NCBI RefSeq assembly: GCF_056712565.1
Contig: NZ_CM160072.1
Length of the DNA: 64,000 nt
Strand: one strand, 5' to 3'
Of the stretch, positions 42,190-45,100 are shown one piece after another; positions within the stretch are counted from its first letter, which is position 1; each line of letters opens with the position of its first letter. Position numbers: made by a program.

Positions 42190-45100
42190 TTAGATCAAAG
42201 GAGGATGAATAGGCAGAAAAAGCCCGCCAAAACAGCGGGCAGGGGGATTTAGAACTGATAAACCAGACCTAAAGCGACGATATCATCGGTAGAGATGCCA
42301 TTGGCAGCGTAGAAGCTGTCATCTTCATCCAACAGGTTGATTTTATAGTCAACGTAGGTGGACATATTTTTGTTGAAATAGTAAGTCGCGCCAACATCGG
42401 CGTATTTAACCAGATCTTTATCATCAACACCTGCTGGGTTGTCTGCACCACCGGCAGCGTGCAGGTCACGGCCTTTAGACATCAGGAAAGAGACTGCCGG
42501 ACGCAGACCAAAATCAAACTGGTACTGTGCAGTGACTTCAAAGTTCTGGGTTTTGTTTGCAACAGCATAATCGCTGTCGCCAAACGGGGTCATATTACGC
42601 GTTTCTGAATACATGGTTGCCAGGTAAATATTGTTAGCATCGTATTTTAGCCCAGCAGTCCACGCGTCTGCTTTATCACCACCCGCCGCAGTATGGTTAA
42701 CCTGGTCATTGGTGCGGTCAGAAGAGGTGTATGCCGCACCAGCGCTAAAGCCCATGCCTAAATCATATGTTGTGGAAAGACCCCAGCCGTCACCGTTTTC
42801 ATGGCGAACATCACGTCCGTTGTTGGTGCCTTCCTGACCATTACTGGCACCTTCGTTGTTACCTTGATACTGCACCGCGAAGTTCAGACCATTTACCAGA
42901 CCGAAGAAATCAGTATTACGATAAGTCGCGACGCCATTGGCACGACCAGTCATAAAGTTGTCTGCATTGGTATAAGAGTCACCGCCAAATTCAGGTAGCA
43001 TATCAGTCCAGCCTTCGATGTCGTACATTACGCCATAATTACGTCCGTAATCGAAAGAACCGTAATCTGCAAATTTCAGTCCGGCAAATGCCAGACGGGT
43101 CCATGACTGGTTTGTTGAAGATTCGGTGTTGTTTGCCTGAATATTGTATTCCCATTGACCGTAGCCAGTGAGTTGATCGTTAATTTGGGTTTCGCCTTTA
43201 AAACCCAGACGAGCATAGCTCTGGTCGCCATCTTTCGCTGAATTATCAGAAAAATAATGCAGGCCATCAACTTTGCCATACAGATCTAATTTGTTGCCGT
43301 CTTTATTATAAACTTCGGCTGCATGTGCAGCACCTGCAGCGAGCAGGGCAGGAATTAAGAGTGCCAGTACTTTGCTTTTCATTGAATAAATCCTTTAGTT
43401 ATTTTATTTGCCTTTCATCCCCATTTTGGGGAGTGAAAACATCCTAAAGGAGAAGTTCAGTTAGCCGATAAATATCATTTGTTACGCCTTAAGTAAAACC
43501 TTAATTAAATAATTCTTCAGAAATGATAATAAGTCTGGTGAATGTATTGGAAATAACACATACAAAATAAAAATTATACTTTTAATTTTCTATACGTTAT
43601 TCTGCGCGGGTTATATGCCTTTATTGTCACAGATTTTATTTTCTGTTGGGCCATTGCATTGCTACTGATTTTCCAACACATAAGAAGACAAGCCCGAACA
43701 GTCGTCCGGGCTTTTTTTTAGAATTGGATAATCCTTATCCAGAGCATTTAATCGGTGTTGCTTTTTTCCGCTTTTCCGGCCATTTGTGCCAGGAAGTCAT
43801 AGCGTTTTTGCAAATCAGCTGCAGCATCTTTCCATAACTGTTCTGCCACTTCTGGCTGCTGCGAATTCAGACGACGGAAACGCTGCTCGTGAAGTAACGT
43901 TTCTTCCAGTGCTTCTGACGGCGGGCGTGAATCCAGCGCCAGCGGCAGTTTGCCTTCATCGGCACGACGAGGATCGAAGCGATATAACGGCCAGAAGCCG
44001 GTAGCAGTGAGTTGGCGCATCTGATCGTGGCTGAGTGCCAGATCGTAACCATGCTCTTCACATGGGCTATAAGCGATGATCAGCGATGGCCCCGGATACG
44101 CTTCCGCTTCCTGAATCGCTTTCACCGTCTGGTTCAACTGCGCGCCGAGAGAAATCTGCGCCACATAAACATGACCGTACATCATCATACTGACGCCAAG
44201 ATCTTTACGCGCTTTACGTTTGCCATGCTCGCCAAACTTAGTTACTGCACCCAGCGGTGTCGCTTTCGATGCCTGACCACCGGTGTTGGAATAGCATTGC
44301 GTATCCAGCACCAGAATGTTGACGTTTTCCGTCAAACTCAATACATGATCCAGACCGCCAAAGCCGATATCGTAAGCCCAGCCATCGCCACCAATCAGCC
44401 AGATTGATTTTTCCACCAGTGCATCTGCGTCACGCAGCAGTTCATGTGCTTCGGCAACATCGTTGAGTTGCTGGCGTAAAGCTGCAACCTGTGCACGACG
44501 AACCTCTGGCGTGGCGTCTGATTTCAACGCAGTCAGTAATTCCGTCGGGATTTTATCGGCAAATTGATCGAGCAGACGCAGCACGCGGACACGGTGTTGA
44601 TCGACCGTCAGGCGGAAACCAAGGCCAAATTCGGCGTTATCTTCAAACAGCGAGTTCGCCCATGCCGGTCCACGACCATTGGCATCGGTGGTATATGGTG
44701 TTGAAGGCAGGTTACCGCCGTATATTGAAGAACAGCCAGTGGCATTAGCGATCAACATCCGGTCGCCATAGAGCTGAGTCAGCAATTTAATATACGGCGT
44801 CTCGCCACAACCGGAGCAAGCACCGGAATATTCAAACAGCGGTGTAATCAGCTGCGATGTACGAATATCAATACGTTCCAGTTTGCTACGGTCGATTTCT
44901 GGCAGGTTGAGGAAGAAATCGTAATTGATTTTCTCTTCTTCGACATGTTCCAGGCGCGACATCATATTGATGGCTTTAATCTCTGGATTCTGACGGTCTT
45001 TCGCCGGGCAAACTTCGACGCACAGGTTACAACCGGTGCAATCTTCCGGAGCCACCTGCAAGACATATTTCTGCCCGCGCATATCACGCGATTTCACATC

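What the first reader, a model, noticed from the sequence alone, without database searches (positions are those of the whole stretch)
43610..43719. MicC sRNA between ompN and ydbK
This is a known sRNA, transcribed from the + strand and divergent from ompN. A few substitutions relative to the K-12 sequence as I recall it (for example …GCATTGCTACTG… and …CACATAAGAAGAC…) could be checked for effects on ompC/ompD pairing.
Basis: partly seen in the sequence, partly recalled or inferred. Interest (0 to 1): 0.2.

Follow-up and report, generated by a model that had tools for sequence, protein, structure and literature searches.

The report
Known MicC small RNA, common variant
This is the well-known MicC regulatory RNA of E. 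coli, in a common natural variant whose three base changes lie outside the part that pairs with its target, so it is ordinary.

Summary
The observation and its interpretation both hold. Window 43610-43719 (+) is micC. Rfam RF00121 matches the full model at 121.3 bits (threshold 90, E 1e-18). The gene lies between ompN (42249-43382, -) and nifJ/ydbK (43748-47272, -), and is divergent from ompN.

Against K-12 the RNA has exactly three substitutions: C54U (43663), U70C (43679) and A75G (43684). It also has 8 rather than 9 tail U's. Nucleotides 1-53, including the whole ompC-pairing 5' end, are unchanged. The ompC leader of a strain with the identical micC locus (ATCC 11775) is 100% identical to K-12's. 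The 16 contiguous base pairs (MicC 1-16 with ompC -30 to -15) are therefore untouched.

The allele is not rare. It is at least 99% identical in 1043 of 5426 complete E. coli genomes. It is 100% identical in ATCC 11775 and in UTI89. A 2026 preprint cloned micC from UTI89 and reports that it represses OmpC.

The only predicted differences are small and untested. U70C breaks an intramolecular helix, largely specific to the K-12-type allele, that covers the seed, so opening the seed costs about 1.25 kcal/mol less. C54U sits in a weak second complementarity to the ompC leader.

Verdict: already known, low interest.

The parts
43610..43719 (+). micC gene: the full MicC sRNA, 110 nt here (reported as 109 nt in K-12)
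   Evidence: Rfam RF00121 at 121.3 bits, full model. It is 3 substitutions from K-12. It is 100% identical to ATCC 11775 and UTI89.
43610..43631 (+). Target-pairing 5' end (nt 1-22). Nt 1-16 form 16 contiguous pairs with ompC leader positions -30 to -15.
   Evidence: Identical to K-12. The duplex of nt 1-16 with the ompC leader taken from ATCC 11775 is -21.3 kcal/mol. The 22-bp duplex and block of 30S binding are described in PMC5745476, citing Chen 2004.
43644..43678 (+). Internal stem-loop (stem nt 35-41 with 63-69, variable loop). C54U (43663) lies in the loop.
   Evidence: The stem is in the Rfam consensus. Across 27 distinct sequences 86.7% of cells are paired, and 2 pairs show compensatory changes.
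43679..43689 (+). A-rich single-stranded linker before the terminator. It carries U70C (43679) and A75G (43684).
   Evidence: Alignments A1 and A2. G at position 75 occurs only in the window and L033 among 28 sequences. Position 70 is variable.
43690..43719 (+). Rho-independent terminator: hairpin 43690-43713 plus a tail of 8 U's (43712-43719). Read on the - strand, the same hairpin sits 35 nt after the nifJ stop codon.
   Evidence: All stem pairs are invariant in 27 distinct sequences. The + strand hairpin is -12.1 kcal/mol with one A.C mismatch. The - strand hairpin is -16.5 kcal/mol. The - strand site was flagged by the terminator scan.
43575..43603 (+). Inferred sigma-70 promoter: -35 TATACT (43575-43580), 17-bp spacer, -10 TATTCT (43598-43603), then 6 nt to the +1 at G43610
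   Evidence: The -10 hexamer or an equivalent (TATTAT, TATGAT, TAAGAT) is kept at this position in 31 species. This is inferred from conservation and spacing, not mapped here.
43560..43579 (+). Block ATACAAAATAAAAATTATAC at -50 to -31, almost invariant across genera. It is a candidate UP element or regulator site.
   Evidence: Upstream alignment of 31 species. The function is inferred only.
42249..43382 (-). ompN (quiescent porin), divergent neighbour
   Evidence: ORF. RefSeq annotation of the identical record.
43748..47272 (-). nifJ (= ydbK, pyruvate:flavodoxin oxidoreductase), convergent neighbour
   Evidence: ORF. RefSeq annotation.

Best explanation
The feature is the micC gene. A sigma-70 promoter produces an RNA of about 110 nt that binds Hfq. 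The promoter is -35 TATACT (43575-43580) and -10 TATTCT (43598-43603), with +1 at G43610.

The invariant 5' end of the RNA pairs with the ompC mRNA leader just upstream of the Shine-Dalgarno sequence (16 contiguous bp, positions -30 to -15). This blocks 30S ribosome binding and lowers OmpC synthesis. An internal stem-loop, an A-rich linker and a terminator hairpin with a poly-U tail form the scaffold that binds Hfq and interacts with RNase E.

The copy in this window is a common natural allele. It is found in ATCC 11775, UTI89, ATCC 25922 and ZH193, which to my knowledge are phylogroup B2 strains. It differs from K-12 at three scaffold positions (C54U, U70C, A75G) and by one tail U.

Shown here: identity, synteny, an intact seed, an invariant target site, a conserved stem and terminator, and how widespread the allele is. 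Taken from the literature: Hfq dependence, the block of 30S binding, and repression of OmpC by this exact allele in UTI89. Inferred: the promoter hexamers, and the near neutrality of the three substitutions.
For: - Rfam: MicC at 121.3 bits against a threshold of 90, full-length match. The K-12 allele scores 125.0 and a third E. coli allele 107.8.
- Synteny: ompN, micC and nifJ lie as in K-12.
- Seed: nt 1-53 are identical to K-12.
- Target: the ompC leader plus 34 nt of coding sequence from ATCC 11775 is 100% identical to K-12 MG1655. It is at least 99% identical in 5364 of 5426 genomes.
- Duplex: MicC 1-16 with ompC is -21.3 kcal/mol for both alleles.
- Structure: the internal stem is 86.7% paired with 2 compensatory pairs, and the terminator is invariant.
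- Allele frequency: at least 99% identical in 1043 of 5426 complete genomes.
- UTI89: the 378-nt intergenic region is 378/378 identical, with 1 difference in 16 kb.
- Function: the preprint 10.64898/2026.07.27.741068 cloned micC from UTI89 and reports clear down-regulation of OmpC on overexpression.
- Divergence: micC differs from K-12 by 2.9%. This is no higher than neighbouring near-neutral sites, which are 4.4% for the intergenic region and 4.2% and 6.6% for third codon positions.
Against: - Expression in the source strain was not measured here.
- The whole-RNA fold is not unusually stable (z = -1.21).
- RNAalifold recovers only the terminator.
- The simple terminator scan did not flag the + strand hairpin, because the stem has an A.C mismatch that K-12 shares.
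- A75G replaces an A that is kept in 26 of 28 sequences compared, so a small effect on Hfq or RNase E handling cannot be excluded.
- The 28 comparison sequences were found by exact match to the first 21 nt. Conservation of the seed in that set is therefore by construction.
Confidence: 0.97

Rival explanations
1. The allele is functionally different from K-12 MicC. U70C destroys an intramolecular helix (nt 2-8 with 68-74) that masks the seed in the K-12-type RNA. The seed is then more accessible and the RNA a more potent, or differently timed, repressor of ompC in these strains.
For: - Mean pair probability of the 2-8:68-74 helix is 0.91 in K-12 and 0.003 in the window allele.
- The energy to open nt 1-16 is 3.14 against 1.89 kcal/mol.
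- U70C alone gives 1.18 kcal/mol.
- ST131 isolates were reported to have higher MicC levels and lower OmpC (PMC7177473). ZH193, which I recall to be ST131, carries the same RNA body.
Against: - These are thermodynamic predictions for naked RNA, whereas Hfq remodels sRNAs in the cell.
- The MFE structures make up only about 1% of the ensemble.
- In 23 of 27 distinct sequences the same helix already has a mismatch at the 6:70 pair. K-12 is the unusual state, and the window allele resembles the majority.
- PMC7177473 attributes the differences to MicC amount, not sequence, and did not link them to the RNA body.
- In UTI89, deleting micC did not consistently raise OmpC.
Confidence: 0.08
2. MicC makes a second contact with the ompC leader through its internal loop. 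Nt 41-50 pair with ompC AUGCAGUGGC. Nt 55-61 pair with AAUCAGU. C54U lengthens that second helix from 7 to 8 bp, at the cost of one pair in the first helix.
For: - Cofolding the full RNAs predicts this contact in addition to the seed.
- The duplex of MicC 23-77 with the upstream leader is -29.7 kcal/mol (K-12) and -28.4 (window). Shuffles give a mean of about -19 to -20.6 with sd about 3.7.
- The observed value is reached by 18-64 of 2000 shuffles.
Against:
- The same ompC bases can pair instead with MicC 17-21 or fold into the leader's own hairpins.
- The ACUGAUU motif is lost in the cryptic Escherichia species (AAUGUUC, CAUGUUU).
- No ompC leaders from other species were available to test covariation.
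- The papers read here describe only the 22-bp 5' duplex (PMC5745476).
Confidence: 0.05
3. The sequence is a decayed or silent copy (a pseudo-sRNA), or only a bidirectional terminator for nifJ, rather than an active micC.
For: - The hairpin is stronger on the - strand (-16.5 against -12.1 kcal/mol) and lies 35 nt after the nifJ stop.
- RefSeq does not annotate micC in these records.
Against: - There is a full-length Rfam match.
- The promoter -10 hexamer and the upstream block are conserved across genera.
- The seed is intact.
- The identical allele cloned from UTI89 represses OmpC, and its deletion has phenotypes.
- Acting as a terminator for nifJ is compatible with being micC, not an alternative to it.
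Confidence: 0.01

Closest known systems
E. coli K-12 MicC (Rfam RF00121; Chen et al. 2004, as cited in PMC5745476 and PMC1489923)
   Same: It has the same locus (ompN, micC, ydbK/nifJ), the same strand relations and the same +1. Nt 1-53 are identical, as are the internal stem and the terminator hairpin. The ompC target site is the same.
   Different: It differs by C54U, U70C, A75G and a tail of 8 rather than 9 U's. There are 10 substitutions in the 227-nt upstream intergenic region, none of them in the inferred -35, the -10 or the invariant block. The Rfam score is 121.3 against 125.0 bits.
MicC of UTI89, ATCC 11775 and ZH193 (extraintestinal and B2-type E. coli)
   Same: The sequence is identical in UTI89 and ATCC 11775 across the whole intergenic region. 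The RNA body is identical in ZH193. The UTI89 allele has been tested experimentally (preprint 10.64898/2026.07.27.741068).
   Different: There is no difference in UTI89 or ATCC 11775. ZH193 has 9 T's because the base after the run is T rather than A.
Salmonella and Citrobacter MicC
   Same: They share the identical first 21 nt, the same stem and terminator layout, and the conserved AUAAA linker and promoter blocks. The 5' end used against ompD codons 23-26 in Salmonella (PMC3333887) is the same sequence.
   Different: The loop and the nt 22-35 spacer differ. The terminator stem is perfect in those genera, whereas E. coli has an A.C mismatch. The ompD target gene is a Salmonella feature and was not examined here.
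MicF/ompC locus (the paralogous arrangement)
   Same: It is also an sRNA divergently transcribed from a porin gene that represses another porin by pairing at the ribosome-binding region (PMC5745476).
   Different: It is a different RNA family with a different target (ompF). It is an analogy only, not membership.

Membership tests
MicC (Rfam RF00121) | Covariance-model score at or above the curated gathering score, over the full model | tested here: met
   121.3 bits against 90, model positions 1-123 of 123, E = 1.2e-18
MicC (Rfam RF00121) | Genomic context: between ompN and ydbK/nifJ, divergent from ompN | tested here: met
   ompN at 42249-43382 (-), micC at 43610-43719 (+), nifJ at 43748-47272 (-)
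MicC (Rfam RF00121) | Conserved 5' end complementary to the ompC mRNA leader next to the ribosome-binding site | tested here: met
   Nt 1-53 are identical to K-12. There are 16 contiguous bp with ompC -30 to -15 of ATCC 11775, at -21.3 kcal/mol. The leader is at least 99% conserved in 5364 of 5426 genomes.
MicC (Rfam RF00121) | Internal stem-loop followed by a Rho-independent terminator with a poly-U tail (Hfq-binding module) | tested here: met
   The stem nt 35-41:63-69 is kept, with 86.7% of cells paired and 2 compensatory pairs. The terminator pairs are invariant. The tail has 8 U's.
MicC (Rfam RF00121) | Own promoter giving a primary transcript that starts at GUUAUAUG | tested here: inconclusive
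   A conserved -10 (TATTCT) lies 6 nt upstream of G43610, with a -35-like TATACT at a 17-bp spacing. The simple consensus scan did not list this pair and instead proposed ATAACA-16-TATACT. The start site was not mapped here.
MicC (Rfam RF00121) | Expressed as an RNA of about 109 nt that depends on Hfq and represses OmpC | not testable with these tools
   From the literature only. The 109-nt length and the block of 30S binding come from PMC5745476 and PMC1489923. The identical UTI89 allele represses OmpC when overexpressed (preprint 10.64898/2026.07.27.741068).

The most novel reading that the evidence does not exclude
This allele, shared with UTI89 and ATCC 11775, might not be neutral. U70C frees the seed from a helix largely specific to the K-12-type allele that masks it. 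Together with C54U in a possible second contact with the ompC leader, and A75G in the A-rich linker and in the U tract of the nifJ terminator, it could change MicC potency or stability. That could contribute to the different OmpC regulation reported for ST131 and other extraintestinal strains.
Probability: 0.07. Interest if true: 0.35.

Novelty: already known. Interest (0 to 1): 0.07.

Why it matters
It matters little. The result confirms that the scan recognises a textbook sRNA with exact boundaries, and that the variant seen is a common natural allele with an untouched seed and target.

Its modest value is practical. Most work on MicC, and the widely used synthetic-sRNA "MicC scaffold", uses the K-12 sequence. 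About one fifth of complete E. coli genomes, including UTI89 and the type strain, carry this three-substitution scaffold. A third, more divergent allele also exists. Anyone comparing MicC activity between K-12 and extraintestinal pathogenic strains should know that the RNAs are not identical outside the seed.

Tried and rejected
1. Extended -10 lost in the window. I first thought the K-12/window G-to-T difference at 43589 removed a TG of an extended -10 upstream of TATACG. The cross-genus alignment puts the -10 at TATTCT (43598-43603). The polymorphism therefore falls at -21 in the non-conserved spacer, and I rejected the idea.

2. Promoter from the consensus scan. ATAACA-16-TATACT (43553-43580) would start transcription about 20 nt upstream of the RNA. 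I rejected it in favour of the conserved -10 at the correct distance. Its TATACT hexamer is better read as the -35.

3. Whole-RNA folding and RNAalifold. These gave no confident structure beyond the terminator. The internal stem had to be tested explicitly.

4. Covariation test of the 2-8:68-74 helix. It is uninformative, because the 5' side was fixed by the way the sequences were retrieved.

5. Chen et al. 2004 (PMC522180). The paper is not held in the library, so the mapped 5' end and the original pairing figure could not be read directly.

6. Literature on the MicC scaffold. I found no position-level data for nt 54, 70 or 75.

7. MicC seed against the ompN leader. The duplex is only -14.7 kcal/mol and interrupted, against -26.5 for ompC. 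This gives no support for self-locus regulation.

8. ompD/nmpC pairing. It was not tested, because the rest of the genome is not in the window.

Full report
**Observation**

The stretch 43610-43719 reads GTTATATGCCTTTATTGTCAC...GCCCGAACAGTCGTCCGGGCTTTTTTTT. An Rfam 15 scan of the whole window gives three hits above the gathering score. One is MicC (RF00121) at 43607-43727 on the + strand. It scores 121.3 bits against a gathering score of 90, with E = 1.2e-18, and covers the full model 1-123.

**Context**

A 377-aa ORF on the - strand ends with its start codon at 43382. A 1174-aa ORF on the - strand has its stop at 43748. The 378 nt between and around them are 100% identical to E. coli ATCC 11775. 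RefSeq annotates the neighbours there as ompN and nifJ, the pyruvate:flavodoxin oxidoreductase known as ydbK in K-12. K-12 MG1655 has the same arrangement. RefSeq records do not annotate micC itself.

**Differences from K-12**

Alignment with K-12 shows exactly three substitutions inside the RNA, plus one fewer tail T:
- C54U at 43663
- U70C at 43679
- A75G at 43684

Nucleotides 1-53 are identical. The 227-nt ompN-micC intergenic region has 10 substitutions.

For scale, divergence from K-12 is as follows:

| Region | Divergence |
|---|---|
| micC | 2.9% |
| ompN-micC intergenic region | 4.4% |
| ompN third codon positions | 4.2% |
| nifJ third codon positions | 6.6% |

The RNA is no more diverged than nearby near-neutral sites, and its 5' half is unchanged.

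**How common is the allele?**

The 110-nt query is at least 99% identical in 1043 of 5426 complete E. coli genomes and 95-99% identical in 3846. Genomes with 100% identity include ATCC 11775 and "FDA strain Seattle 1946". UTI89 is 378/378 identical across the intergenic region, with 1 difference in 16 kb. ZH193 has the same RNA body. From my own knowledge these are phylogroup B2 strains; I did not test that here.

A third, more divergent allele class exists. About 405 genomes fall in the 80-90% identity band. One example is ECA64, which scores 107.8 Rfam bits. One genome, LR9-2, has micC cut by IS1 at nt 47.

**Effect on pairing**

I located ompC in the ATCC 11775 record and read its leader. 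The 81-nt leader plus 34 nt of coding sequence is 100% identical to K-12 MG1655. It is at least 99% identical in 5364 of 5426 genomes.

MicC nt 1-16 form 16 contiguous pairs with ompC -30 to -15. This lies directly upstream of the GAGGG Shine-Dalgarno sequence. The duplex is -21.3 kcal/mol and is the same for both alleles. This matches the published mechanism, in which a duplex near the start codon blocks 30S binding (PMC5745476, citing Chen 2004). The ompD site described in Salmonella (codons 23-26, RNase E-dependent; PMC3333887) uses the same unchanged 5' end. The substitutions therefore do not touch the pairing nucleotides.

**Where the substitutions sit**

Comparison sequences came from 30 further species found by exact match to the first 21 nt. 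The set covers Citrobacter, Salmonella arizonae and diarizonae, cryptic Escherichia, Superficieibacter and Pseudocitrobacter. I aligned 26 of them, together with the window and K-12, as 28 sequences of which 27 are distinct.

- The internal stem (nt 35-41 with 63-69) is kept: 86.7% of cells are paired and 2 pairs show compensatory changes.
- The terminator stem is invariant.
- C54U is in the variable loop.
- U70C and A75G are in the A-rich linker before the terminator.
- Position 70 varies between species.
- Position 75 is A in 26 of 28 sequences and G only in the window and in Escherichia sp. MOD1-EC7003.

**Predicted side effects (untested)**

*Seed masking.* In K-12, nt 2-8 are predicted to pair with nt 68-74, with a mean pair probability of 0.91. 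U70C breaks this helix, lowering the probability to 0.003. The energy to open nt 1-16 falls from 3.14 to 1.89 kcal/mol. However, 23 of 27 distinct sequences already have a mismatch at the 6:70 pair. K-12 is therefore the unusual state.

*Second contact.* Cofolding suggests a second contact of MicC 41-61 with ompC -57 to -39. Its energy is reached by 18-64 of 2000 shuffles. The finding is post hoc. Part of the motif is lost in cryptic Escherichia species.

*nifJ terminator.* The terminator hairpin is stronger on the - strand, at -16.5 against -12.1 kcal/mol. It lies 35 nt after the nifJ stop codon. U70C and A75G reduce the T-richness of that - strand tail.

**Promoter**

Aligning 100 nt upstream in 31 species shows a conserved -10 (TATTCT, 43598-43603) placed 6 nt before G43610. 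A -35-like TATACT (43575-43580) sits at a 17-bp spacing. A nearly invariant block, ATACAAAATAAAAATTATAC, lies at 43560-43579. None of the window's 10 upstream differences falls in these elements.

**Function of this exact allele**

A 2026 preprint (10.64898/2026.07.27.741068) amplified micC from UTI89. It reports that overexpression clearly lowers OmpC and that deletion reduces fitness in several host niches. UTI89 is identical to the window here, so this is a direct functional test of the allele.

**Verdict**

This is a known sRNA in a known place, as a common natural allele with an intact seed and target. The novelty class is "already known" and interest is low.

Noticed in passing
window 36528-36645 (+): FnrS sRNA: Rfam RF01796 at 134.8 bits (threshold 60), full-length.
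   Followed up: no
window 29566-29661 (-): McaS/IsrA sRNA: Rfam RF00115 at 112.8 bits (threshold 42), full-length.
   Followed up: no
window 43560-43579, with further blocks at about 43510-43543: The 20-nt block ATACAAAATAAAAATTATAC at -50 to -31 of micC is almost invariant in 31 species from five genera. That is far more conservation than a -35 element needs. TGAATG, GATAAT and TAATTC further upstream are also conserved. These are candidate regulator sites, or the divergent ompN promoter. PMC5745476 leaves micC transcriptional control unresolved.
   Followed up: partly
window 43690-43713, both strands: The micC terminator hairpin is more stable when read on the - strand (-16.5 against -12.1 kcal/mol, because the A.C mismatch becomes G.U). 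It lies 35 nt after the nifJ stop, so it is probably a bidirectional terminator. The substitutions at 43679 and 43684 weaken the - strand T tract (TCTTCTTAT against K-12 TCTTTTTAT).
   Followed up: partly
L034 (ECA64), L036 (LR9-2), L035 (ZH193): E. coli has at least three micC allele classes. The third class falls in the 80-90% identity band (about 405 genomes), scores 107.8 Rfam bits, and has a shortened loop and a perfect terminator stem. One genome has micC disrupted by IS1 after nt 47.
   Followed up: partly
window 43650-43670 against L003:23739-23757 (ompC leader -57 to -39): MicC nt 41-61 is complementary to the upstream ompC leader (10 bp plus 7-8 bp). The signal is weak (p about 0.01-0.03 against shuffles). 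MicC nt 52-61 in K-12 (GCCACUGAUU; GCUACUGAUU in the window allele) also resembles the 5' end of the ompC leader (GCCGACUGAUU) in the same sense.
   Followed up: partly
window 43725-43741: An imperfect palindrome, TGGATAATCCTTATCCA, lies between the micC tail and the nifJ stop codon. It is predicted to form a small hairpin in the nifJ 3' UTR.
   Followed up: no
window about 40984-41585 (-): The identical RefSeq records (ATCC 11775, UTI89) annotate a frameshifted metal ABC transporter permease pseudogene upstream of uspF. In the K-12 locus fetched, the only gene annotated upstream of uspF is ynaM, which sits at the locus edge rather than at this position.
   Followed up: no
window 43610-43719; RefSeq records NZ_CP033092.2, NZ_CP010442.1, NC_007946.1: RefSeq annotation lists no feature for micC in any of the records inspected, so annotation-based pipelines would see this as an empty intergenic region.
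   Followed up: yes
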